Shown: positions 2,428-55,381, numbered from the stretch's first letter. The stretch is DNA of 64,000 nt from Clostridium sp. (GCA_023664605.1 JAMPFF010000010.1:13174-77173), one strand, 5' to 3'. The notes: a model not told the origin generated them from the letters alone. A program made the numbers and translations.

Positions 2428-3462
2428 TTACATTTTATTTAATAACGCATATGTCCGTCCAGCGATATCACCCAGTTTTTCCTGATATTCCACCGCTCCC
2501 AAATCATAAGCGACTTTGGGCATTCCATAAACCACGCAGGTCGATTCATCCTGTCCGATTGTCCTCGCTCCGGCTCTTCGCATGGATAAAAGTCCCTTAC
2601 CGCCGTCGCCTCCCATGCCGGTTAGGATAATTCCCACCGCATCACGTCCGGCGCATTTTGCCACCGATTCAAACAGTACCTCTACCGACGGACAGTGTCC
2701 GTTTACTCTGGGGCCTTCTTTTATTTCGACATGATAGGCGCCGTTTACTTTAATCAGACGCATATGTCTGTCTCCGCCGGGTGCAATCAACATATGCCCC
2801 GGAAGCACCCTGTCGCCGTTCTCCGCCTCTTTTACCGAAATCCGGCACTGGTCGTTAAGCCTTTTGGCATACATTTCCGTAAACTTGGGCGGCATGTGCT
2901 GTACACAGACAATACCCGGTATATCGGTTCCATAATCCTTGACAACGGAATAAATTGCTTCCGTTCCGCCTGTCGAAGCGCCGATTGCCACGATTAAATC
3001 CTTCTTCTGTATGGACGGATGCGGCGCTGCTTCTTGCTGCATCATCACCGTCTTTTTAATATTGCTGATTTTTGCCGTCGAAGCGATTTTAATTTTTACC
3101 AAAAGTTCGTTTTTGATAAAATCCTCCAACTGCGCACGGTTCGACACTGACGGTTTCGCCACAAAATCGACCGCGCCGGCATTCATCGCGTCGAATACTT
3201 TATCGCTCAGGGCGCTGATTACAACGACCGGAAGCGGATACTGCGGTATCAATTTACGGAGGAAATCGATTCCGTTCATCCTTGGAAGTTCCACGTCCAG
3301 AGTCATGACATCCGGTTTATGCGCCAGAATCAGGTCTCTTGCCTCAAAAGGGTCTTTCGCCGTCGCTACAATCTTTATCGCCGGGTCTTTCCCCAGATTC
3401 TGAACCAAAAGCTCCCTGAATACGATGGAATCCTCCACAATTAATACTTTAATTGGCTGCAT
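2428..3462 (-). CDS. cheB: Chemotaxis methylesterase CheB (REC + esterase)
   Basis: Likely start MQPIKVLIVEDS at 3462; AIGASTGG, VQHMP, HCPSVEVLF, ILTGMGGDG, QDESTCVVYGMP. Confidence 0.95.
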   Translation of the reverse strand: MQPIKVLIVEDSIVFRELLVQNLGKDPAIKIVATAKDPFEARDLILAHKPDVMTLDVELPRMNGIDFLRKLIPQYPLPVVVISALSDKVFDAMNAGAVDFVAKPSVSNRAQLEDFIKNELLVKIKIASTAKISNIKKTVMMQQEAAPHPSIQKKDLIVAIGASTGGTEAIYSVVKDYGTDIPGIVCVQHMPPKFTEMYAKRLNDQCRISVKEAENGDRVLPGHMLIAPGGDRHMRLIKVNGAYHVEIKEGPRVNGHCPSVEVLFESVAKCAGRDAVGIILTGMGGDGGKGLLSMRRAGARTIGQDESTCVVYGMPKVAYDLGAVEYQEKLGDIAGRTYALLNKM

Positions 3463-46107: not shown

Positions 46108-49100
46108 TTATGCAATTTCCTCAGAATTTCGTTTGATATTCTCCACTACTTCCATAATTTGTTTCGCAGTTTTCATATCATCCTTGAACAAAGTTGTAAT
46201 ACTGCCTACTGACCTGAACGGTTCTTCCATAAGCACTTTATTATCATCAATATTTCCGTTCGCAACAATATAATCTACAATAAGATTAACAAAACGTATC
46301 TGATTAATATTCAAACGCTCTTCTTTAAGGAATTCACTAAACGCTTCATTTACAGCAGTTCTATCTACTCCAATAATCCGGCGGACAAGCCTGCCGACAG
46401 GTGTATCCCCATATTCTTTTACATAGTCTTCTTTAGATCCAAGTTCCTGCCATAAAATACGTTCCAGTTCTTTAAGGTCACTTTCGGATAATTGCTTATT
46501 GTTCCTAAGTTTATATACAGAAATCCTATCACTATGTTCTTTTAAATAGAATTCAACTTTTTTACGATAATTCTGTAAATCACTGCTATCATAAATCGGC
46601 TCACCCTTAGCTGCATCAACAATAGTATCAGCAAAATTGGTATAATAAACCCTTTGTACAATCTTATCCAAATATTGCAGCAGTTCACGCATAGCTACCC
46701 TCACCGTATCAAGTTCCATAATCGTTGCCTGCTCCCAAAACTCTGCCTGCTGTACTCTCTCAATAACTTCTCTCTGTTCTGCCACCTGCGGGATTGCATA
46801 CTTTGCAGACAAACGCTGTGCCGTTTGGATTACAATATTGACAGGCGTTTGGATTTTCTTACTTTGCAGTATTCCTAAGTCAATACTATATATCAGATAA
46901 TCAAAACGTCTCGCAAGTTCATCTTCCTTTTTAGGTTTCACAAGCGGCGCAATATGTTCCTTAATCTCCGAAATCTCAACAGACTCAAGATTATTCCAGC
47001 TAGAACGGCTGCGATACATTTCAACATATCTCAAATGTCTTTTTACCATAAAACTGCCATTATTTAATTCCATAACTGATTGGTGCAAATCATCTGCCAA
47101 ATTGTTTCTATAAGAAACATAATATTCATCAGTCATAAAAGATGAAGACTGTAGTTCCCGACAAATCTGTGCCTTTATATTATAAATTTTCTCACACAGT
47201 GTTTCCTGGATGCCGGTTTCGCTGCCGTTTTTATTCACTCTGAAATACTCAAAATTATTGCAAAAATCAAAAATTAAAAATCTTTCTTTATCAATTCCTT
47301 CTCCCAGCAAATTCGGACATAGCCTTGTTCCTCTGCCAATCATCTGCCAAAACTTTGCATAACTTCTGACTTTTTTAAAAAACACCAAGTTCAAAATTTC
47401 CGGGATATCAATCCCAGTATCAAGCATATCTACAGATACTGCAATCTGTGGCATTGTATTTTTTATGCTAAAATCATCTATCAAAGAATCACAATACTTA
47501 ATACTATAATCAATCTGCTTTATAAAATCCCCGCCGCATTCCGGAAATAAAACGTTAAACCTCTTTACAATAATCTGTGCATGCAGGCTGTTTTTGGCAA
47601 AGATAATTGTTTTACCAAGTTTATCTCCTCCTTCAATTTTAAGTCCTTTTTCCATAAGTTCTTTTAATACCTTATCAATGGTATCCGTATTAAAAAGCCA
47701 TGAGTTGATTGCAGAACTTGCAATATCATCTTCAATTGCCTCATCCTCTCCGAAAGTTTCCTCATATTCCTCTTTTTCTTCATCCGATAAATCATCATAA
47801 TGAATGCCATCTTCCATGATTTTGGTCTTATACTCAAGGGTTGAATAAGTAACCAGATACCCTTCCTCAACAGCTTTTTCCAATTCATACGCGAAAGTAG
47901 GCACGCCTCTTTCAAGGTCAAAGATACTATATGTATTTTTATCAATTTCATTTTTAGGTGTTGCAGTCATACCCAAGAGCAGAGCATCAAAGTATTCAAA
48001 AACCTCCCGATATTTTCTGTAAATAGAGCGATGAACCTCATCACAGATAATCAAGTCAAAATGGCCCGGACTGAACAATCTTTCTCCAAACTTATTTTTC
48101 TTCTCATCAATTGCATTCATCATCGTCGGATAAGTAGAAAAAATCATGCGGGAAGACTCCGGGTCATCTTTGCTGTCCAGCAGATTACAACATGGCAAAT
48201 CACTAAGCAGATTTGTATAACTGTTCTTTGCCTGTCTCACTAAGGCAGTTCTGTCCGCCAAAAAAAGAATATTTTTCACGTAATTATGACGTCTTAATAC
48301 ATCTACCACACTGATACTTACTCTTGTTTTACCAGAGCCAGTTGCCTGTACAATAAGCATTTTTCTATGTTTTTTAGCAATAGCATCACAAACAGCAGTA
48401 ACCGCTTCTTTCTGATACGGACGATTCGTAATAGCATCACTGATTTCTATATTCTCTAATGGTTTACGCTGCTTTCTTCTATCAATTTCTAATTGCAATT
48501 CATTCTGTGTAAAAAATCCCGAAACCTCCCGGCTGGCATATCCCATATAATCATTCGTATAAAAAAACTCAAATCCGTTTGTCGTATAAATCAAAGGCCG
48601 TCTGCCATATCGATTTTGCATACAATCAGCATAAAGTTTTGCCTGCTGATTTCCGACCATTGCATTAACAGAGGCTTTCTTTGCCTCAACCACCGCAAGA
48701 GGAAGATTATCCTTTCCCCACAGTACATAATCTACATAACCAATTTTTGTACTATTAGGCATCCCTGTAACAGGCTCTTCAACCGTGCAGTTTCTTCCGA
48801 TAATCCAACCGGCTTCCTGTAATTCCACATCAATATACTTCTTTCTCGTTTCTGCTTCACTAATTGTATCTATATGGAATTCTCTTGTCTGGGTATGATG
48901 CTTACGTTCTTCGGTCATTTGCCTGCGAAGGCTCTCATTTTCCTTAAGAACTTCCGCAAGTTTTTTATCTTTACTGCTTAAATTCTCATATAATAATTTT
49001 AATTCATCCGCCTTTATGCGTTTTTCGTCTCCAGATGATAAAATTGATTCATCAAAAGTTCTTTCTTCATACTCCTTGGAATAAGAATAGTCAATCCAAT

Positions 49101-49458
49101 CACAAAATTCAAAGAGATCCCTTAAGGCAATAACAGCCTCATCTCTTTTTATATTACTATTTGTATGAACAGCAACATTTCCGAGGTGAATCGTATATTT
49201 TAACATAGGAAAAAGCCGCGGTTCAATGATATCGCGAAATGTCCGTTCATGAATCAGGCTGGAAACATTATCCTGATAGGGCAGTTTCAATTCCGCATCA
49301 TAAGAATATACAAACCGCACTGCCAGTTCCAAAGCACGTCTTGATAATATAGCACAGGTTGCCGGAGAAATAGCAATACTCTTTTCCGCTTCCACTGCCT
49401 GCACGGCAAAATCTGCATATTCCTTTTTTTCTAATAAATAGTCAAAGTTAGTCTCCAT
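46108..49458 (-). CDS. hsdR: Type I restriction enzyme R subunit (N-terminal DUF4145-like region)
   Basis: YVDYVLW...VVEAKK nuclease motif, QATGSGKT, DEVH, MTATP, SVDMLDTGID, QMIGRGTR. Confidence 0.95.
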   Translation of the reverse strand: METNFDYLLEKKEYADFAVQAVEAEKSIAISPATCAILSRRALELAVRFVYSYDAELKLPYQDNVSSLIHERTFRDIIEPRLFPMLKYTIHLGNVAVHTNSNIKRDEAVIALRDLFEFCDWIDYSYSKEYEERTFDESILSSGDEKRIKADELKLLYENLSSKDKKLAEVLKENESLRRQMTEERKHHTQTREFHIDTISEAETRKKYIDVELQEAGWIIGRNCTVEEPVTGMPNSTKIGYVDYVLWGKDNLPLAVVEAKKASVNAMVGNQQAKLYADCMQNRYGRRPLIYTTNGFEFFYTNDYMGYASREVSGFFTQNELQLEIDRRKQRKPLENIEISDAITNRPYQKEAVTAVCDAIAKKHRKMLIVQATGSGKTRVSISVVDVLRRHNYVKNILFLADRTALVRQAKNSYTNLLSDLPCCNLLDSKDDPESSRMIFSTYPTMMNAIDEKKNKFGERLFSPGHFDLIICDEVHRSIYRKYREVFEYFDALLLGMTATPKNEIDKNTYSIFDLERGVPTFAYELEKAVEEGYLVTYSTLEYKTKIMEDGIHYDDLSDEEKEEYEETFGEDEAIEDDIASSAINSWLFNTDTIDKVLKELMEKGLKIEGGDKLGKTIIFAKNSLHAQIIVKRFNVLFPECGGDFIKQIDYSIKYCDSLIDDFSIKNTMPQIAVSVDMLDTGIDIPEILNLVFFKKVRSYAKFWQMIGRGTRLCPNLLGEGIDKERFLIFDFCNNFEYFRVNKNGSETGIQETLCEKIYNIKAQICRELQSSSFMTDEYYVSYRNNLADDLHQSVMELNNGSFMVKRHLRYVEMYRSRSSWNNLESVEISEIKEHIAPLVKPKKEDELARRFDYLIYSIDLGILQSKKIQTPVNIVIQTAQRLSAKYAIPQVAEQREVIERVQQAEFWEQATIMELDTVRVAMRELLQYLDKIVQRVYYTNFADTIVDAAKGEPIYDSSDLQNYRKKVEFYLKEHSDRISVYKLRNNKQLSESDLKELERILWQELGSKEDYVKEYGDTPVGRLVRRIIGVDRTAVNEAFSEFLKEERLNINQIRFVNLIVDYIVANGNIDDNKVLMEEPFRSVGSITTLFKDDMKTAKQIMEVVENIKRNSEEIA

Positions 49459-49525
49459 GGATACCCGCCTTTTTACATTTGTATCTTTATCTTTTATCTG
49501 TGTTCTGGTAAAATCCTGTCATTTT

Positions 49526-50131
49526 TCAAAGGCTTTCCGTTTTATATACTGAATAGCCTTCATAATAATAACTGTAGTCAATACCTTTCATATATACTTC
49601 GCGGTCATCGACTTTATCGGTCAACGCACTTTTTAATAGACATTTTATCTCCGTGTCCTTAATCGGACTTCTTTCCATTGCCAGTAAGTAATCATCCTTA
49701 TCAATCTTACTCCAGTCAACCACCATGTGAAGTTCCTGCTTCATCATCAAATCCAGCCATATCCGCACGCTTCTGCCATTTCCTTCACGGAAAGGATGCG
49801 CCACATTCATTTCAACATATTTTGCAACAATCTCATCAAAGGTCGATTGGGGCATTTCCTCAATATTTCTAAGCGCATCATTCAAATACATAACCGGTAC
49901 AAATCTAAAATTCCCCTTTGCAATATTAACATTTCTTATCTTGCCTGCAAAATCATAAATTTCTTCAAAAAGAAACTTGTGTATCTTTAAAAGACTATCC
50001 AGCGTACCGGCTTTCAAAGTATATAAATATCCGTTTTCAAATAATAAAGCCGCTCTCTTTTTACTGATTTTTTCTTCTACCCGGGCAAGTTCCGAGGAAT
50101 CGGTTATATTAAATTGATTTTCAAGCGACAT
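49526..50131 (-). CDS. Class III Fic-domain AMP transferase
   Basis: HPFREGNGRSVR catalytic loop plus C-terminal inhibitory SYYYEG, as in Neisseria NmFic. Confidence 0.9.
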   Translation of the reverse strand: MSLENQFNITDSSELARVEEKISKKRAALLFENGYLYTLKAGTLDSLLKIHKFLFEEIYDFAGKIRNVNIAKGNFRFVPVMYLNDALRNIEEMPQSTFDEIVAKYVEMNVAHPFREGNGRSVRIWLDLMMKQELHMVVDWSKIDKDDYLLAMERSPIKDTEIKCLLKSALTDKVDDREVYMKGIDYSYYYEGYSVYKTESL

Positions 50132-50146
50132 AACAGCCTGCCTTTC

Positions 50147-50206
50147 CTATATTTCAATAATCATATCGCAAACGGATTGCTTGGGCATCCTATCTTTATT
50201 ATCCAT
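50147..50206 (-). pseudogene. Probable remnant of a HEPN/DUF86 toxin gene (19 codons)
   Basis: ATG overlaps the MNT stop (ATGGATAA) with the coupling expected for the partner gene; MDNKDR start then stop after 19 aa. Identity is inferred from context. Confidence 0.4.
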
Positions 50207-50498
50207 AAATCACCATTCCACTCTGCTTAATTTCCTTGTCAATTTCTGAATTTGGAATAATCTGTGATACATCAAACAAATCAACATTTTTTTCCAAAGA
50301 TGTCACAACATCTTCAAGCAATCCAAAAAAAGCAAGTCCTTTTAACCCACTATCAACCATAATATCAATATCGCTCTGCTCTTTTGCAAATCCCTTTGCA
50401 TAAGAACCAAAAAGAATTGCCTTTTTTACATTATAATCAGAAAATATTGGCTGCAATATCATCTGTATTTGTTGTATTGTATATATTTTATTCTGCAT
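50199..50498 (-). CDS. Minimal nucleotidyltransferase (MNT, antitoxin-type)
   Basis: ILFGSYAKG...SDIDI; about 99 aa from MQNK. Confidence 0.88.
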   Translation of the reverse strand: MQNKIYTIQQIQMILQPIFSDYNVKKAILFGSYAKGFAKEQSDIDIMVDSGLKGLAFFGLLEDVVTSLEKNVDLFDVSQIIPNSEIDKEIKQSGMVIYG

Positions 50499-50556
50499 AA
50501 TATCTCCTATTGTCCCAAGCATTATTACATAAAGTTCAACTATAACTTTTGAAATA

Positions 50557-50835
50557 TCAGCAATAATATGTTATTTCTCCAAAAAAATCAATCCATTTTT
50601 GAATTACTTCACTGCTACGGGCTTCAATAATTCTCATAATATTACGCAATACTTTGGGAGGTATGCTAGAATTATTATGTGCCAGCAAACATTTTCCGGA
50701 AGCTGTAATCCATACTTTGGTTGCGCTTTCCGATGGGTTTCCTTCTGAGATATGCACATGAACAGGTTCATTTGGTCTGCCCTCATTTGCCCAAAAATAT
50801 ACCCAATAAGAACCAATTCTAAAAACCTGAGGCAT
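50557..50835 (-). CDS. DUF4160-family protein
   Basis: MPQVFRIGSYWVYFWANEGRPNEPVHVHI. Confidence 0.8.
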   Translation of the reverse strand: MPQVFRIGSYWVYFWANEGRPNEPVHVHISEGNPSESATKVWITASGKCLLAHNNSSIPPKVLRNIMRIIEARSSEVIQKWIDFFGEITYYC

Positions 50836-51088
50836 TCATAAATCCCCCTTCTTTTGAAAACTCAATTATCAAATGTGCCGTAGACTTGATAATATCCATA
50901 AAATAATTAACTTCATCTTCTGAATATCCATTAATTTCCATACGATAGGATGGCAAATAGCAGGTCATACTATGAAAACAATCTCTTTCATTGGGCGTTT
51001 CAATATAAACCTTTACCTCACCATTTTCTAATTGTTCTGAATGGACAATCTCCGTATTATCTTCTAACGTCATAAATGGATACATCAT
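50819..51088 (-). CDS. Small acidic hypothetical protein coupled to DUF4160
   Basis: Likely start MMYPF after GGAG; overlaps the DUF4160 start by 17 nt. Confidence 0.75.
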   Translation of the reverse strand: MMYPFMTLEDNTEIVHSEQLENGEVKVYIETPNERDCFHSMTCYLPSYRMEINGYSEDEVNYFMDIIKSTAHLIIEFSKEGGFMNASGF

Positions 51089-51122
51089 AACTACTTCTCC
51101 TTCCAATTACCAGATTATTTTT

Positions 51123-51331
51123 AAGTGATTGCAACACCCTGTTTTTCAAAACGTCCGTTGTGTAATATAGACAAATCAACGCAGGCACGCTCGCGCTGCT
51201 TGTCGCTCACAGCGGTGCTAAGCTCGAAAAAACCTCGCTAAGCGCCGGTGGCTCCAAAGCACCTTGCTTATGATATTGTCTATATTACGCAACTAGATTT
51301 TGAAATTACGCATTTTCACAATTACCTGACT
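51123..51331. repeat. Nested palindromic intergenic element C
   Basis: IR GTTGTGTAATATAGACAAATCA (51157-51178)/TGATATTGTCTATATTACGCAAC (51271-51293), outer TTTCAAAA/TTTTGAAA; right end reverse-complements to TCAGGTAATTGTGAAA, like the end of element B. Confidence 0.7.
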
Positions 51332-51340
51332 AAATTATTC

Positions 51341-52498
51341 CTACCCGAAATATTTCTGCATCAAAGAATCCATCAAGGTCTGGGTTTCATCTAAGGATTT
51401 TTGTATTTCAAGTTTCAGTTTGTCTACTTGACGGACAAATGCGGCAAATTGGTTTTGGATATCTATAGGCGGCATAGGAACTTTAAATTTTCTGAACTCT
51501 CCCATTGATACTCTTGGCATTTTTGCTCCAGCAACTTTTTTATTAATCATATTTACAAATTCATCACTTCTCAGCATAAAGGCTAAATACTCACGATTTA
51601 TTTTTGACATCACTGGCTGCAATGAAACCAATTCTGATGTGGCATAACCACATCTATCCGGAATTACAACTTTATTTAAATATGGTCTAAGTTTTGAATA
51701 CAACACATTGCTCGTATCAAATGTACATGTAGAATTTCCAACTTTATTTTTAGATACTATTAAATAATCTATTATTCTTCCTGTCTGTGCTTCTACCATA
51801 TCAAGATTTAATAACCACACTTTATCTTCAAAATCACCTGAATAATTTATTGCTGGAGCAACATCATTCATTAACTCTGTTTTCCATCCTTTAGAATTAG
51901 AAACAGGGTAACCAAACATTTCCACAAACCGGGATTTGATTAAAAGATTAAATTCTTGAATCTGCTTTTTATACAAAGAAATTAACCCATTTGTTCTGTC
52001 TAATATCTCAACAACTTCTTTTTGCTCTACTAACTCAGGCAGATTTATTTTAATTTTCTTTAAATCAGAAACCGCAAAACTAGCTTGATTCACTGACTTT
52101 TTTGTAATTCTCATAATTTGTTCTTTAAAAATATAAGAAGAAAAATAATATTTTGCATATTTTGGATTCATTAAAGAAGAATTAGCTTTAAGTCTTAATA
52201 AATTCATTCCGTGAATTATTTTCTCATTTCCCATTTTTTCATATAATACAGTTCTTCCTAAATACTGAATACTATTAATATGCGACATTAATAAATCACT
52301 GTCTTCAAGCACATACGAAGCATATTTATCCAAATTATCAATTCCAGCATATCCCATTTTATCACGGTTAAATTGATTATTAGATATTGTTTCAATTCGA
52401 GTAATTGGATATCCTCCCTCCATAACACCTTGTTTTATATTTGCCCCATTTTGAATATGATAAAAACATTCTTCAACAGTTTTTATTTTCATTTTCAT
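51341..52498 (-). CDS. hsdS: Type I R-M specificity subunit (two TRDs)
   Basis: Conserved regions LPELVEQKEVV...KSRFVEMFG and PPIDIQNQF...SLMQKYFG flank two variable TRDs. Confidence 0.93.
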   Translation of the reverse strand: MKMKIKTVEECFYHIQNGANIKQGVMEGGYPITRIETISNNQFNRDKMGYAGIDNLDKYASYVLEDSDLLMSHINSIQYLGRTVLYEKMGNEKIIHGMNLLRLKANSSLMNPKYAKYYFSSYIFKEQIMRITKKSVNQASFAVSDLKKIKINLPELVEQKEVVEILDRTNGLISLYKKQIQEFNLLIKSRFVEMFGYPVSNSKGWKTELMNDVAPAINYSGDFEDKVWLLNLDMVEAQTGRIIDYLIVSKNKVGNSTCTFDTSNVLYSKLRPYLNKVVIPDRCGYATSELVSLQPVMSKINREYLAFMLRSDEFVNMINKKVAGAKMPRVSMGEFRKFKVPMPPIDIQNQFAAFVRQVDKLKLEIQKSLDETQTLMDSLMQKYFG

Positions 52499-52527
52499 TT
52501 TCTCGCATCCCCACAAATCGGAATTTC

Positions 52528-52662
52528 CTATAATATAGCAAATGTCTCTTTCTCTAACAACGTTTTTGCATCATAACAAACAATTTTACCATCTTCAAAA
52601 TATACATATACTGTATATTCTTCCGTTGGAACTACCTGAACTATTTTAGGGAACATACTCAT
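52528..52662 (-). pseudogene. Truncated DUF2442-like gene (44 aa)
   Basis: Manual translation MSMFPKIVQVVPTEEYTVYVYFEDGKIVCYDAKTLLEKETFAIL-stop; the N-terminus fits the DUF2442 pattern (V.P...Y...v.F.DG) and the C-terminal half is missing. Confidence 0.6.
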
Positions 52663-52994
52663 CCTCACAAATCTTTTTCTTGACACCATTCATTATATCA
52701 CATATTATATATCAAAATAAGCGGTTTTTACCGTATGGTCTCTTAGGCATCAAATAACGTACTCGCTTCTTTTTAGTAGAATATATATATTATACTATAT
52801 TTTATTTATTAATAATAGCTATCTTTCTAATATTGGCACTATAACAGTATGGACTTTCCAATATCGGTTTTATATTGACAAGAAAACTAGCAGCAGGCAG
52901 AAAAAGAAAATTGACAGATAATATCAATACATGATAACATGAATATAAGGGTGAGTGTCTCTTTATTATTCACAAAAATTTCACAATTTGTTCG

Positions 52995-53023
52995 TTGATT
53001 GTTCTTTTAAATCAGCATATAAT
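52995..53023 (+). promoter_or_regulatory. toxIN promoter
   Basis: TTGATT-17-TATAAT directly upstream of the repeat array. Confidence 0.8.
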
Positions 53024-53031
53024 AAAATATA

Positions 53032-53165
53032 AGAAATCAGTGTGATTTCTATAGCGGTGAGTTTCTACCATTATAAATGAAACATTAAAATAGCGTGTGA
53101 TTCCCCACCAGCAAGAGGGAAATGAAAATAGCGTGTGAGCCTACACCACAAAAAAAGGAATAAAA
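53032..53165 (+). ncRNA. toxI: Type III antitoxin RNA (ToxI-like): 5' hairpin plus three 38-39 nt pseudoknot units
   Basis: Units start with ATAGC at 53051, 53090 and 53128; each has S1/S2 H-type pseudoknot pairings; located between the promoter and terminator upstream of toxN. Confidence 0.85.
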
Positions 53166-53167
53166 AT

Positions 53168-53197
53168 AAGGAGCTGGCATAAGTCAGTTCCTTTTTT
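53168..53197 (+). terminator. Intrinsic terminator between toxI and toxN
   Basis: AAGGAGCTGGC-ATAA-GTCAGTTCCTT-TTTT (11-bp stem with two G-U pairs). Confidence 0.88.
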
Positions 53198-53215
53198 ATA
53201 CATAGGAGAAACATT

Positions 53216-53710
53216 ATGAAAATTTACAGAATAAAAGATGAGTATATTGCATTTTTAAGAACTAAAGATTCAAAGGTTTTGACCAATAAAGAAGAACGGC
53301 GTCCCTATGTTGGCATTGTATACTCAATCAATAACTTAAATTATTACATACCATTAACTTCGCCTAAACCAAAACATAAAAAAATGAAAAACACAAAAGA
53401 TTTCCATAAAATAAAAAATGGCGAATACGGAGCAATTAATTTTAATAAAATGCTTCCAGTAAAAGAAGAATGTATAGTGGAATTTAATTTTAAAAATGAG
53501 CAAGATAAAAATTATAGAATGCTTCTACAAAATCAATATAAAGAAATTAGTGCTTTAGAAGATATAATTAAGAAAAAGGCTGAAAATATATATAAACTCT
53601 TCCATACTGATGATTCAGAATTAACAAAAGCAGACTTATCTGTAAAAAATAGATGCTGTGATTTTGATTTATTAGAACAAATGTGCGTGAAATATAGAGA
53701 ACGTCCTTAA
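53216..53710 (+). CDS. toxN: Type III toxin endoribonuclease, ToxN/AbiQ family
   Basis: MKIYRIKDEYIAFLR.KDSKV...RPYVGIV...YYIPLTSPK...AINFNKMLPV; AGGAG RBS. Confidence 0.92.
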   Translation: MKIYRIKDEYIAFLRTKDSKVLTNKEERRPYVGIVYSINNLNYYIPLTSPKPKHKKMKNTKDFHKIKNGEYGAINFNKMLPVKEECIVEFNFKNEQDKNYRMLLQNQYKEISALEDIIKKKAENIYKLFHTDDSELTKADLSVKNRCCDFDLLEQMCVKYRERP

Positions 53711-53732
53711 TTGTACTAAATATAATGCAACA

Positions 53733-53765
53733 ATAAAGGGAACCGCAAAATGAGCCTCCCTTTAT
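53733..53765. terminator. Hairpin between convergent toxN and hsdM
   Basis: ATAAAGGGA...TCCCTTTAT, 9-bp IR. Confidence 0.55.
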
Positions 53766-53790
53766 AAGTATGAGGACTATCCCACTTTCC

Positions 53791-55250
53791 CTACTCCTCA
53801 AGTAATTTTTTCAATTCAGCCATCTGTGTCTGAATCTGTGTTTCAATCTGCTCTATGCGGTTGATAATCACAGCCGGAGAGTCATATTCCACCTTTTCAT
53901 ATACAACCTCTTTATATTTATTGATAGAGAGGTCATAATCGTTTGACACAATTTCTTCTAACGGTACAAAAAAGCTTTGTTCCGTCCTTGCTCTGTCAAC
54001 TTCGCCATTTAGATTATGGAATCTGCTTATAATGTCAGGAATATCACAGTCCGCTGTCTCCTGCCTTTTATCATCCAGACTGTAGCCATCCGCTTTCATA
54101 TCGTAAAACCATACCTTATCAGTACCGCCGGAACCGGTCTTGGTAAACACAAGGATTGCCGTCGAAACTCCTGCATATGGCTTAAACACGCCGCTGGGCA
54201 TGGAAATAACTGCATCCAGTTTATGCCGGGTCAGTATTTCCTTTCTAATCTCTTTATGTGCGTTACTGCTGCCAAACAATACCCCGTCCGGTACAATAAC
54301 TGCCGCTCTTCCGCCCTTTTTCAAAATACGCAAAATAACGCAAGAAAAAGCAATTCTGTCTTTTTGGTCTTAGTAACTTTCAGTAAATCAGCGGATACCG
54401 CCTCATAATCAAGACTTCCTTTAAAAGGCGGATTGGCAAGTACCAATGTATATTTTTCCGTATCCGTATTCTGTTCAGACAGGCTGTCTCTATAAGAAAT
54501 ATCCGGATTATCAACGCCATGTAAAAGCATATTCATAGCGCCGATACGGAGCATCGTTCTATCCATATCATTGCCATAAAACATATCATTATTAAAATGG
54601 TTCCGCAGTTTTGCATCAAAAAACATATCTGCATGATTTTCTCGAAGATACTGCTGCGCTTCAATCAAAAATCCCGCGCTTCCCATAGCCGGATCAATAA
54701 TAATATCATCTGGCTGTGGTTTTACCAACGCCACCATCATCTTAATAATATGTCTTGGCGTCCTAAATTGACCGTTTGTGCCCGCTGTCGCGACTTTTGA
54801 CAATAAATATTCATATAAATCGCCTTTGGAATCTTCCTCACCGAGGTCTAATCTGTCGATTCCATCTACAATCTTAGACAGCATGGCTGCGGTGGGAATC
54901 TTAAAAATGGCATCACCCATATAACGTGCATATGCGGAATCTCCGTCCTGATGCAGATTTTTAATAAACGGGAATACCCCGTTAGCCACAATCTCATACA
55001 TTTCTTCGGCAGAGCCTAAATTCTTAAATTTACTCCATCTGTATTTCTGGCATTCACCCGGAAACATAGATTCAAACGGCACTCCAAGGAAATTGCTCTC
55101 ATTCTCTTTTGTCGTCTCTACCTCGTCCAGCTGTTTAATAAACAGCAAATAAGTAAACTGTTCAATCACATCTAGCGGATTCGTAATCCCGCCAGTCCAG
55201 AAAGTCTCCCATATTCTATCAATTCTATTTCGTATCTCGCCTGTAATCAT
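53791..55250 (-). pseudogene. hsdM: Type I R-M m6A methyltransferase, split by a 1-nt frameshift
   Basis: ORFs 54321-55286 (MITGEI..., DPAMGSAG, NPPF) and 53791-54333 (RILKKGGRAAVIVPDGVLFG) join in frame if one T is added to the T4 run at 54332-54335. Confidence 0.88.
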
Positions 55251-55381
55251 ATTGTTCTCCATATTTATAGTGTTTCTGCTTGGCAAGCCACACTTATACT
55301 TTTATTCACCAGAAAAATTTATTTGTTTAAAAATGCAGTTATATATAATTTATTGTAACACACCCTTACATAGATTTCATC

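What the first reader, a model, noticed from the sequence alone, without database searches (positions are those of the whole stretch)
53032..53197. ToxI array with three different sequences but one conserved pseudoknot
Characterised toxI loci are near-identical tandem repeats (established). Here the 39/38/38-nt units share only ATAGCG..TGA and an A-rich tail, yet each forms the H-type pseudoknot with different base pairs. Unit 1: S1 GGT/ACC, S2 GTTTC/GAAAC. Unit 2: S1 GTG/CAC, S2 TTCCC/GGGAA. Unit 3: S1 GTGT/ACAC, S2 CCT/AGG (all seen). This is covariation within a single locus and would evade tandem-repeat finders. An 8-bp hairpin (AGAAATCA-GTG-TGATTTCT) caps the 5' end. The recurring inter-unit AAAATA predicts the ToxN cleavage site. 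Inference: a heteromeric antitoxin that resists repeat collapse, tunes sensitivity, or cross-neutralises several ToxN variants or phage mimics.
Basis: partly seen in the sequence, partly recalled or inferred. Interest (0 to 1): 0.8.

Follow-up and report, generated by a model that had tools for sequence, protein, structure and literature searches.

The report
Three-different-unit ToxI antitoxin array
This is a genuine ToxIN toxin–RNA-antitoxin (phage-defence) locus whose RNA antitoxin is made of three clearly different but individually conserved pseudoknot units, an arrangement that is the rule in its gut-bacterial clade yet has not been described for this family in the papers I could search.

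Summary
Window 53032-53197 is the leader of a toxN gene (53216-53710, Pfam ToxN_toxin, E 3e-49). It has a promoter, an 8-bp 5' hairpin, three 39/38/38-nt units, a terminator and an RBS. The units are only 68-71% identical. In the family register each can form the ToxI H-type pseudoknot, and three stem-2 pairs differ by compensatory changes.

Across 134 distinct units from 65 related loci, 95.9% of pair cells are paired (43-61% when slid), with strong covariation.

- Stem 1 is essentially the same helix in all three units.
- AAAAUA marks three of the four boundaries, not the 5' side of unit 1.
- TRF default misses the array, but the relaxed settings used in 2012 find it.
- Unit 3 is a weak pseudoknot (3+3 bp).

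The heterogeneity is not unique to this locus. 54 of 63 multi-unit arrays in the clade are non-identical, and 50 of those have exactly three units. Orthologues with 58-85% identical toxins keep the same A-B-C order. Each unit is 79-97% conserved, against 58-68% at toxN third codon positions, so all three are under selection.

One orthologue is A-B-B and sister loci are A-A-A, so distinct units are not obligatory. The adaptive explanations remain untested.

Verdict: a new variant of a known kind, of moderate interest.

The parts
52995..53023 (+). sigma-70-type promoter: -35 TTGATT (52995-53000), 17-nt spacer, -10 TATAAT (53018-53023). Predicted start about 53030-53031.
   Evidence: Consensus scan, 10 of 12 matches. 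The -10 box is invariant in the 8 aligned orthologues. The transcription start was not measured.
53032..53050 (+). 5'-terminal leader hairpin: 8 bp, loop GUG.
   Evidence: -6.5 kcal/mol, z = -4.0, and kept in the full-length fold. Orthologues keep the stem with only wobble-compatible changes, while the loop varies from 2 to 11 nt. Leader hairpins of unrelated sequence sit in the same place in many other Firmicutes loci and are absent in the Treponema loci.
53051..53089 (+). ToxI unit 1 (type A, 39 nt). S1: G56-C69, G57-C68, U58-A67, G59.U66. S2: G61-C83, U62-A82, U63-A81, U64-A80, C65-G79.
   Evidence: Leave-out HMM E 3e-7. Fits the family register. Orthologue L087 has a compensatory U-A to C-G change in S2. 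14 of its first 19 nt match verified ToxI_Pa (my reading).
53090..53127 (+). ToxI unit 2 (type B, 38 nt). S1: G97-C108, U98-A107, G99-C106. S2: U101-A121, U102-A120, C103-G119, C104-G118, C105-G117.
   Evidence: Leave-out HMM E 3e-4. The stems are invariant in 8 orthologues while loop 3 varies. The outermost S2 pair is present only in the window and L002.
53128..53165 (+). ToxI unit 3 (type C, 38 nt). Family register S1: G135-C146, U136-A145, G137-C144. S2: C140-G158, C141-G157, U142-A156. Seven-A run in loop 3.
   Evidence: Not found by the leave-out HMM. It is called a unit from its period, its shared 5' AUAGCGUGUGA and ACACCA motifs, its register, and 89-97% conservation in orthologues other than L089.
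53166..53199 (+). Start of a fourth unit (AUAAGG), which supplies the last AAA^AU junction and merges into the intrinsic terminator (stem 53168-53193, then UUUUUUAU).
   Evidence: Terminator scan: 11 pairs. -15.9 kcal/mol, z = -5.9. 100% paired in orthologues, with one compensatory and several one-sided changes.
53204..53209 (+). Ribosome-binding site AGGAGA, 6 nt before the ATG.
   Evidence: Read directly from the sequence.
53216..53710 (+). toxN: 164-aa ToxN/AbiQ-family endoribonuclease toxin.
   Evidence: Pfam PF13958, E 3.2e-49, full length. PDB matches: 4ATO ToxN_Bt 2.5e-20, 2XD0 ToxN_Pa 2e-10, 7D8O ToxN_Ec, 4GLK AbiQ. The active-site T-S-x-K motif is conserved as T48, S49, K51.

Best explanation
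This is a canonical ToxIN type III toxin-antitoxin (abortive-infection) cassette. It sits on the opposite strand inside a type I restriction-modification operon.

Proposed mechanism:
1. One promoter makes a leader RNA of about 170 nt: a 5' hairpin, three ToxI pseudoknot units and a terminator. Read-through of the terminator gives the toxN message.
2. ToxN is predicted to cut the leader at the three AAA^AUA junctions. This releases three different RNAs of 38-39 nt. Unit 1 probably keeps the 5' hairpin, because its 5' side has no cut site.
3. Each RNA keeps the parts shared by all units: the 5' tail AUAGC(G), stem 1 (G-U-G-A ... C-A-C-C-A) and the A-rich 3' tail. Through these it can bridge two ToxN monomers in the closed 3:3 complex known for this family. 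If all three are used, the complexes here are necessarily mixed in their RNA.
4. Three units per transcript equal the RNA content of one complex.

Origin of the differences: the units are old paralogues that diverged by compensatory change in stem 2 and drift in loop 3. Each is now held by purifying selection. Homogenisation by duplication or conversion happens only now and then.

Shown: the anatomy, the family membership of the toxin, the covariation that supports the pseudoknot, the age and order of the three unit types, and selection on each unit.
Inferred: the cleavage positions, the activity of each unit, mixed complexes, and the protective role of the hairpin.

I judge the heterogeneity more likely a tolerated and stably inherited state than a requirement.
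For: - Toxin: Pfam ToxN_toxin E 3e-49; solved relatives and the T-S-x-K motif.
- Operon anatomy: promoter and terminator.
- Pseudoknot: 95.9% paired against 43-61% slid; 111 double-change cells against 36 in shuffles. Each array position separately is 95.5-97% paired.
- Homology to the prototype: the ToxI_Pa repeat was verified in pECA1039. Like U1, it has 5 nt before GGUGA and then UACC.
- Junctions: AAA^AU at three junctions fits AA^AU and GAA^AU (PMC5086642, PMC8860590).
- Order conserved: the same A-B-C order in L087, L088, L014/L081, L082, L090-93 and L002, whose toxins are 58-85% identical.
- Selection: array identity 87-95% against toxN CDS 76-81%. Per unit 0.79-0.97 against third codon positions 0.58-0.68.
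- Clade-wide: 54 of 63 arrays are heterogeneous and 50 of those have three units. In 29 of 40 heterogeneous arrays the nearest other array is collinear, where about 7 are expected by chance.
- Not obligatory: L089 is A-B-B and the sister loci are A-A-A. Divergence is not concentrated in stem 2.
Against: - Nothing has been tested experimentally: not toxicity, neutralisation, processing or complex composition.
- U3 is not recognised by a sequence model of other units. It lacks two family-conserved pairs and shows no covariation of its own among orthologues, whose stems are invariant.
- Folding energies of single units are no better than shuffles.
- No Rfam family matches.
- The cleavage rule is borrowed from distant ToxN proteins. 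Most relatives have AAAAAAGC at the junction rather than AAAAUAGC, so the exact cut site may differ.
- Conservation above the synonymous-site level could partly reflect constraints on the DNA or transcript other than antitoxin function.
Confidence: 0.8

Rival explanations
1. Obligate, position-specialised heterotrimer. The three units are not interchangeable. One transcript assembles in cis with three ToxN into one closed triangle. Unit identity (hairpin-capped A, B, terminator-adjacent C) encodes position in the ring, or gives graded stability and so a tuned trigger threshold.
For: - Exactly three units in 50 of 54 heterogeneous arrays.
- Unit order conserved across species in 29 of 40 arrays, and across 58-85% toxin identity in the window's clade.
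- Each unit type, including its loop sequence, is more conserved than toxN third codon positions.
- The 5' side of unit 1 lacks a cut site in the whole A-B-C clade.
Against: - L089 carries A-B-B with an intact toxN.
- Sister loci (59-60% identity) and about 14% of the clade have near-identical units.
- Characterised ToxIN systems work with a single repeated unit (PMC3401426, PMC8860590).
- There is no excess divergence in stem 2.
Confidence: 0.12
2. Only part of the array is an antitoxin. Unit 1, or units 1 and 2, neutralise ToxN. Unit 3 is a decayed repeat kept for another reason, for example as a spacer that supplies the last cleavage site or sets terminator efficiency.
For: - U3 is missed by the leave-out HMM.
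- It has only 3+3 bp and lacks the C15-G30 and G6-C19 pairs that 92% of units have.
- Its own stems show no covariation among orthologues.
- It can be replaced by a copy of B in L089.
Against: - U3 is 89-97% identical across orthologues, with a 100% paired register. That is far above neutral expectation.
- It keeps the shared 5' tail, the stem-1 core, ACCA and the A tail.
- Third-position units across the clade are 95.5% paired with covariation.
Confidence: 0.07
3. Not a real feature: an AT-rich leader in which short complementary runs occur by chance.
For: Stems of 3-5 bp are easy to find in any sequence. Single-unit folding energies are not significant. TRF at default and Rfam see nothing.
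Against: Significant HMM hits in the window only here. Family-wide covariation at fixed columns. Position directly between a promoter and a terminator upstream of a ToxN gene. Orthologous conservation.
Confidence: 0.01

Closest known systems
ToxIN of Pectobacterium atrosepticum pECA1039 (prototype type III TA; PDB 2XD0/2XDD)
   Same: Promoter, tandem RNA units, terminator, then toxN. ToxN-family toxin (E 2e-10) with the T-S-x-K active-site motif. An H-type pseudoknot unit with 5 nt before GGUGA and then UACC; U1 matches 14 of the first 19 nt of the verified ToxI_Pa unit. AA^AU-type junction.
   Different: The prototype has 5.5 near-identical 36-nt repeats. Here there are three full units of 38-39 nt that are only 68-71% identical, with compensatory stem-2 differences, plus a 5' leader hairpin. 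Lys33 of ToxN_Pa aligns with Arg29, and Tyr29 has no counterpart.
ToxIN of Bacillus thuringiensis pAW63 (PDB 4ATO)
   Same: The closest solved toxin (E 2.5e-20), sharing the RPYVG and LTS motifs. A Firmicutes system with about three repeats (2.9 x 34 nt, from my own knowledge) and an A-rich cut site (A^AAAA, PMC5086642).
   Different: Its repeats are reported as near-identical. The unit length and loop sequences differ. The junction here carries a U (AAAAUA).
AbiQ/antiQ of Lactococcus lactis (PDB 4GLK) and the pCV56A ToxN/AbiQ locus
   Same: The same toxin family (E 1e-8). The pCV56A locus aligns at DNA level with the window's array and toxN (68% identity). It has three units of the same consensus, AAAGCGGUGAAUCUCCACCA.
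   Different: The three pCV56A units differ by only one or two bases. The window's units differ at about a third of their positions.
tenpIN loci with non-identical repeats (Sci Rep 2025, PMC12283969)
   Same: Type III TA arrays whose repeats differ (by up to 35%), evade Tandem Repeats Finder, and can each still be drawn as a pseudoknot. That paper raises the same open question of whether all the repeats are functional.
   Different: A different toxin family (TenpN), usually with two longer repeats. The paper contrasts this with toxIN and cptIN, which it calls nearly identical or mostly perfect. It gives no covariation statistics and no test of orthologue order.
toxIN loci of gut Clostridia catalogued by Blower et al. 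2012 (PMC3401426) and candidate ToxI motifs of PMC8040213
   Same: The same clade. L043 ([Ruminococcus] torques ATCC 27756) and L009 (Ruminococcus sp. 5_1_39BFAA) are in the 2012 table and have non-identical units (mean core identity 0.86). The authors used relaxed TRF settings for 'more variable antitoxin sequences'.
   Different: Those studies analysed one consensus repeat per locus. Differences between units, their compensatory nature, their fixed order and the three-unit rule were not reported in the text I could read. The supplementary tables were not available.

Membership tests
ToxIN (type III toxin-antitoxin, ToxN/AbiQ family) | Toxin belongs to the ToxN/AbiQ protein family | tested here: met
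   PF13958, E 3.2e-49, covering 1-160 of 164 aa and 1-159 of 159 of the profile. PDB 4ATO 2.5e-20, 2XD0 2e-10, 7D8O 7e-10, 4GLK 1e-8.
ToxIN (type III toxin-antitoxin, ToxN/AbiQ family) | Catalytic residues of ToxN (Lys33, Thr52, Ser53, Lys55 in ToxN_Pa/Ec; PMC8860590) | tested here: met
   In the alignment to 2XD0, T52/S53/K55 correspond to T48/S49/K51, and K33 corresponds to R29, basic as in ToxN_Bt. S49, P50, K51 and K53 are invariant in 39 relatives. Activity was not tested.
ToxIN (type III toxin-antitoxin, ToxN/AbiQ family) | Tandem array of short (about 31-46 nt) units directly upstream of the toxin gene | tested here: met
   Three units of 39/38/38 nt at 53051-53165, plus the start of a fourth. 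TRF relaxed: period 38, 3.1 copies. The units are 68-71% identical, well below the 'nearly identical' repeats described for the family (PMC12283969).
ToxIN (type III toxin-antitoxin, ToxN/AbiQ family) | Each unit folds as an H-type pseudoknot with two interleaved short stems and single-stranded tails | tested here: met
   Family covariation. The window's U1 and U2 fit 7-8 of 8 core pairs and U3 fits 6 of 8. The 3D fold and base triplexes are not testable here.
ToxIN (type III toxin-antitoxin, ToxN/AbiQ family) | Rho-independent terminator between the array and the toxin gene, with a single promoter upstream of the array | tested here: met
   An 11-bp stem plus T-run at 53168-53199. Promoter-like site at 52995-53023. 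Both are conserved in orthologues. Function was not measured.
ToxIN (type III toxin-antitoxin, ToxN/AbiQ family) | Toxin processes the precursor at an A-rich site at unit boundaries | not testable with these tools
   AAAAUA is present at three of four boundaries. By register with ToxI_Pa the cut would be AAA^AUAGC (PMC8860590).
ToxIN (type III toxin-antitoxin, ToxN/AbiQ family) | RNA neutralises the toxin in a closed 3:3 heterohexamer; phage-defence phenotype | not testable with these tools
   Indirect only: three units in 55 of 63 multi-unit arrays, and a setting inside a type I R-M operon.
Rfam-curated RNA families | Match to a curated covariance model | tested here: not met
   No family reaches its threshold in 52600-53800. 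The best hits are spurious (E 0.3-9, far below gathering scores).
tenpIN / cptIN (other type III families) | Toxin of the TenpN or CptN family | tested here: not met
   The only Pfam hit is ToxN_toxin, and the nearest solved structures are all ToxN/AbiQ.

The most novel reading that the evidence does not exclude
In this large gut Firmicutes/Treponema clade, the ToxI antitoxin is an ordered heterotrimer. One transcript encodes three non-equivalent pseudoknots, and these assemble in cis with three ToxN into a single closed ring. Unit identity specifies position or differential decay, and the 5'-hairpin-capped first unit closes the ring or times its opening. Heterogeneity would then be a functional design: ordered assembly, a tuned trigger, protection against inter-unit misfolding, repeat loss or phage decoys. 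It would not be drift.
Probability: 0.15. Interest if true: 0.75.

Novelty: new variant of a known kind. Interest (0 to 1): 0.55.

Why it matters
Type III antitoxins are taught and searched for as near-identical tandem repeats. A 2025 survey still states this for toxIN.

Here, and in about 86% of the related arrays I sampled, the antitoxin is three different RNAs that keep one fold through compensatory changes. Their order is fixed, and each is conserved more strongly than synonymous sites of the toxin gene.

This has three consequences:
- Surveys that rely on default repeat finders undercount these loci. 15 of 59 arrays were missed at TRF default settings.
- The ToxN-ToxI complexes of this clade are probably mixed in RNA composition. 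That gives a natural experiment on which nucleotides ToxN really reads.
- Three old questions become directly testable with simple rescue assays on natural variants (A-B-C, A-B-B, A-A-A): why the arrays hold three units, whether each repeat is active, and whether repeat identity affects stability or triggering.

The system itself is otherwise an ordinary ToxIN cassette in a defence island.

Tried and rejected
- Rfam scan at E <= 10: spurious hits only.
- The built-in TRF tool with its score threshold lowered to 30: nothing over the array. This is a parameter effect, since relaxed mismatch and indel penalties find it.
- Thermodynamic folding of single units: not different from shuffles, and pseudoknots are not modelled, so it is uninformative.
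- 'Diversifying selection on stem 2' (orthogonal stems to prevent inter-unit mispairing): within-array divergence in stem 2 (0.24) is no higher than in loop 3 (0.26) or the tails, so there is no support. By my own reading of the sequence, U1's stem-2 5' arm could still wobble-pair with U2's 3' arm, and U3's CCU with AGG in U2.
- 'Several ToxN variants to neutralise': no second ToxN-like ORF and no further units in the window. The rest of the genome is unknown.
- 'Phage decoy arrays': two scans of viral contigs with U2- and U3-specific patterns found only three contigs. These carry the complete orthologous toxIN locus (the toxN ORF was confirmed in L096), not free decoys.
I prefer the latter.
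- Supplementary tables of Blower 2012, to see how variable repeats were recorded: not held.
- The MAFFT alignment of the leader hairpin among orthologues is out of register, so the 76.8% paired understates it. I read the hairpins directly instead.

Full report
WHAT IS THERE

The stretch 53032-53197 lies directly upstream of a 164-codon ORF (53216-53710, + strand). That ORF matches Pfam ToxN_toxin over its whole length (E 3.2e-49). Its nearest solved relatives are ToxN of B. thuringiensis (4ATO, E 2.5e-20), ToxN of P. atrosepticum (2XD0, 2e-10), ToxN of E. coli (7D8O) and AbiQ (4GLK). In the alignment to ToxN_Pa the active-site Thr52/Ser53/Lys55 correspond to T48/S49/K51, and Lys33 corresponds to Arg29. 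The residue list comes from PMC8860590.

Upstream of the ORF the order is:
- a sigma-70-like promoter (TTGATT, 17 nt, TATAAT; 52995-53023);
- an 8-bp hairpin at the predicted 5' end of the transcript (53032-53050; -6.5 kcal/mol, z -4.0);
- three units, U1 53051-53089, U2 53090-53127 and U3 53128-53165;
- 'AUAAGGAG', which begins like a fourth unit and runs into an 11-bp terminator with a T-run (53168-53199; -15.9 kcal/mol, z -5.9);
- an AGGAGA ribosome-binding site and the ATG.

CHECK OF THE OBSERVATION

The unit lengths (39/38/38), the hairpin and the coordinates are right. Pairwise identity of the units is 0.68, 0.68 and 0.71.

Short stems are cheap, and nested folding of single units is no better than shuffles (z -0.45 to -0.87). 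I therefore tested the structure comparatively.

- A scan of one genome per species found 80 loci encoding relatives. Nearly all carry similar units between a promoter and a terminator.
- I extracted 178 units (134 distinct) from 65 loci with a sequence-only HMM and aligned them with MAFFT.
- I counted an eight-pair pseudoknot at fixed columns (S1: 6-9 with 16-19; S2: 12-15 with 30-33). 95.9% of 1069 cells are paired, against 42.8-61.2% when the partner is slid. There are 111 double-change cells against 36.0 +/- 5.5 in shuffles (0 of 500 as high).
- The covarying pairs are clear: 8-17 is UA 107 / CG 17; 12-33 is UA 100 / CG 23; 13-32 is CG 88 / UA 41; 14-31 is UA 87 / CG 29.
- An HMM built without the window's own clade finds U1 (E 3e-7) and U2 (E 3e-4) as the only significant hits in the 64 kb. 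It does not find U3.

The repeat of the prototype ToxI, which I recalled from memory, was verified at 100% in plasmid NC_011767.1 of P. atrosepticum. Written from its known cut site it reads AUUCAGGUGAUUUGCUACC... U1 reads AUAGCGGUGAGUUUCUACC..., which is the same architecture.

Corrections to the observation:
- In the family register stem 1 is the same helix in all three units (G-C, U-A, then G.U or G-C). U2 and U3 have lost the outer pair. The apparent 'different S1 pairs' come from shifting the register, and GTGT/ACAC in U3 is impossible in orthologues L014 and L002.
- The real within-locus covariation is in stem 2, where three of the four core pairs differ on both sides among the window's own units.
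- U3 is a weak pseudoknot (3+3 bp) and lacks the near-invariant C15-G30 pair.
- AAAAUA marks U1/U2, U2/U3 and U3/terminator. The 5' side of U1 reads UUUCUAUAGC.
- TRF at default settings misses the array, but at match 2, mismatch 3, indel 5 it reports period 38, 3.1 copies, 69% matches and score 127. Those are the relaxed settings Blower et al. used for 'more variable antitoxin sequences' (PMC3401426).

HOW COMMON IS THE HETEROGENEITY

It is the rule in this clade.

- With a second-round HMM, 63 loci have at least two units. In 54 of them the mean unit identity is below 95%, and 50 of those 54 have exactly three units. Of the nine homogeneous arrays, four have two or four units (Fisher p = 0.011).
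- On the first-round set, 45 of 59 arrays show at least one compensatory pair difference among their own units. 31 of 59 have mean core identity below 0.8. The window (0.57) is at the extreme end, with L002, L052 and L004.
- TRF default misses 15 of 59 arrays.
- Each array position taken separately is 95.5-97.1% paired with covariation.
- Two loci already in the 2012 catalogue belong to the clade and have non-identical units: [Ruminococcus] torques ATCC 27756 (L043) and Ruminococcus sp. 5_1_39BFAA (L009). That study analysed one consensus repeat per locus.

ARE THE THREE UNIT TYPES OLD AND SELECTED

Closer relatives were fetched by a metagenome scan and by exact-protein look-ups.

- Order. Loci whose toxins are 85% (L087), 80% (L088), 74% (L014/L081), 72% (L082), 71% (L090-93) and 58% (L002) identical all keep the same order: type A (GUUUC/GAAAC), type B (UCCCC/GGGA), type C (CCU/AGG with an A7 loop).
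- Array against CDS. Array identity to the window is 87-95%, while the toxN coding sequence is 76-81% identical.
- Per unit. U1 is 0.79-0.97, U2 0.88-0.95 and U3 0.89-0.97 identical. This compares with 0.58-0.68 at third codon positions, 0.59-0.74 in the spacer before the ATG, and 0.42-0.84 in the leader hairpin.
- Stems. Unit stems are 97.5-100% paired, apart from the outermost U2 pair, which only the window and L002 have. L087 has a compensatory U-A to C-G change in stem 2 of unit 1.
- Clade-wide order. For 29 of 40 distinct heterogeneous three-unit arrays, the nearest other array matches in collinear order, where one in six is expected by chance.

All three units are therefore under purifying selection. 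This disfavours the idea that only one is active.

IS THE HETEROGENEITY REQUIRED

Probably not.

- L089 (81% toxin identity, intact toxN) has A-B-B: unit C is replaced by an exact copy of B.
- The sister loci L001 and L083/L084 (59-60%) carry three near-identical A-like units.
- A Lactococcus plasmid locus that aligns with the window at DNA level has three nearly identical units.
- Within-array divergence is spread evenly: stem 2 0.24, loop 3 0.26, 3' tail 0.20, stem 1 0.12. There is no sign of selection for different stems.
- The positions that never vary within arrays are G6, G7, A10, C15, C18, C19, A20 and A39-40. They are candidates for protein contacts or tertiary core. The window's units keep them, except that U2 and U3 have U at column 6 and U3 has A at C15.
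- No second toxN and no other unit occurs in the window.
- Scans of viral contigs with U2- and U3-specific patterns found only three contigs. Both unit types hit all three, and a full toxN ORF was confirmed in L096. No free decoy arrays were found.

MECHANISM I CONSIDER MOST LIKELY

1. The promoter produces the leader RNA, and terminator read-through gives toxN mRNA.
2. By register with ToxI_Pa/Ec, where the cut is GAA^AU five nucleotides before GGUGA (PMC8860590), ToxN would cut at AAA^AUAGC after 53089, 53127 and 53165. This yields three different RNAs of 38-39 nt.
3. Unit 1 has no such site on its 5' side anywhere in the A-B-C clade, so it probably keeps the hairpin.
4. Leader hairpins of unrelated sequence occupy the same place in many Firmicutes relatives. 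They are absent in the Treponema loci, where the predicted start coincides with the 5' tail of unit 1.
5. I infer a 5'-end protective role for the hairpin, from general knowledge of 5' stem-loops and RNase J in Firmicutes. This was not tested.
6. Each RNA would bridge two ToxN monomers through its shared tails and stem-1 face, as in the solved 3:3 complexes (PMC5086642). Three units per transcript match one complex.
7. If all three are used, the complexes are mixed in RNA.

COMPARISON WITH WHAT IS KNOWN

The locus meets every sequence-level criterion of the ToxIN family. Processing, neutralisation and complex formation could not be tested.

Non-identical repeats have been described for the tenpIN family (PMC12283969). 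That paper contrasts them with 'nearly identical' toxIN and cptIN repeats. Blower et al. 2012 acknowledged variable repeats but worked with consensus units. A microbiome RNA-motif survey listed candidate ToxI motifs upstream of ToxN in Clostridiales without discussing unit differences (PMC8040213).

In the literature I could search I found no description, for toxIN, of compensatory differences between units of one array, of their conserved order, or of the three-unit rule. I therefore class this as a new variant of a known kind. The window is one, rather extreme, example of a clade-wide pattern.

CONTEXT

The cassette lies on the + strand inside a minus-strand type I R-M operon. The order on the minus strand is hsdM, then toxIN, then hsdS, several small genes including a Fic/DOC gene, and hsdR. 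Orthologues sit next to other defence genes such as GmrSD-like and NERD proteins. This fits a mobile defence cassette.

Noticed in passing
window 53791-55286 (- strand): The type I R-M methylase gene hsdM is split into two overlapping ORFs: 54321-55286 (HsdM_N plus the first half of N6_Mtase) and 53791-54333 (the second half of N6_Mtase). This implies a frameshift near 54321-54333. It could be a pseudogene, a phase variant or an assembly error.
   Followed up: partly
window 46108-52689 (- strand): The R-M operon carries a string of small accessory genes between hsdS (51341-52516) and hsdR (46108-49458). They are DUF2442 (52528-52689, weak hit), DUF4160 (50557-50835), a Polbeta/MNT-type nucleotidyltransferase (50199-50522) and a Fic/DOC protein (49526-50131). 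The region looks like a small defence/TA island.
   Followed up: partly
L089 1372-1490: An orthologous locus (toxin about 80% identical) has units A-B-B. The third unit is an exact copy of the second. This is a natural homogenisation event and a ready-made test case.
   Followed up: yes
L002 about 2984-3030: In this MAG the toxN reading frame is broken within the first 15 codons: stops appear in the ATG frame, and the homology continues in another frame. The A-B-C array is intact. It may be a pseudogene or an assembly error in an A-run.
   Followed up: partly
L095, L096, L097 (IMG/VR contigs of 89-96 kb): The A-B-C toxIN orthologue (protein P0006) lies on long contigs catalogued as viral. In L096 (the one inspected) it sits beside a 479-aa ORF that matches the gene flanking this toxN in L090/L091/L093, where Pfam finds Mrr_N and GmrSD_N. 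The cassette may travel on a prophage or another mobile element.
   Followed up: partly
L064 2654-2830 and L065 2732-2900: In two Erysipelotrichaceae loci the ToxI-like array starts about 10 nt after a tRNA-Ile/tRNA-Glu pair on the same strand, with no evident promoter between them. The antitoxin may be co-transcribed with the tRNAs.
   Followed up: partly
L013, about 220-260 nt upstream of its toxN: Two extra weak unit-like sequences (CGGGAGAG.UCCUGCCAUAUAAGUGGA...) lie upstream of the promoter of the regular three-unit array. They may be remnants of an older array.
   Followed up: no
Treponema loci L006, L007, L011, L012, L015, L017, L024, L030, L033, L034, L036, L039, L052, L054: These loci have no leader hairpin. 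The -10 box is placed so that the transcript would start about 5-6 nt before stem 1 of unit 1, so the start site itself seems to define the 5' tail that processing creates for the other units.
   Followed up: partly
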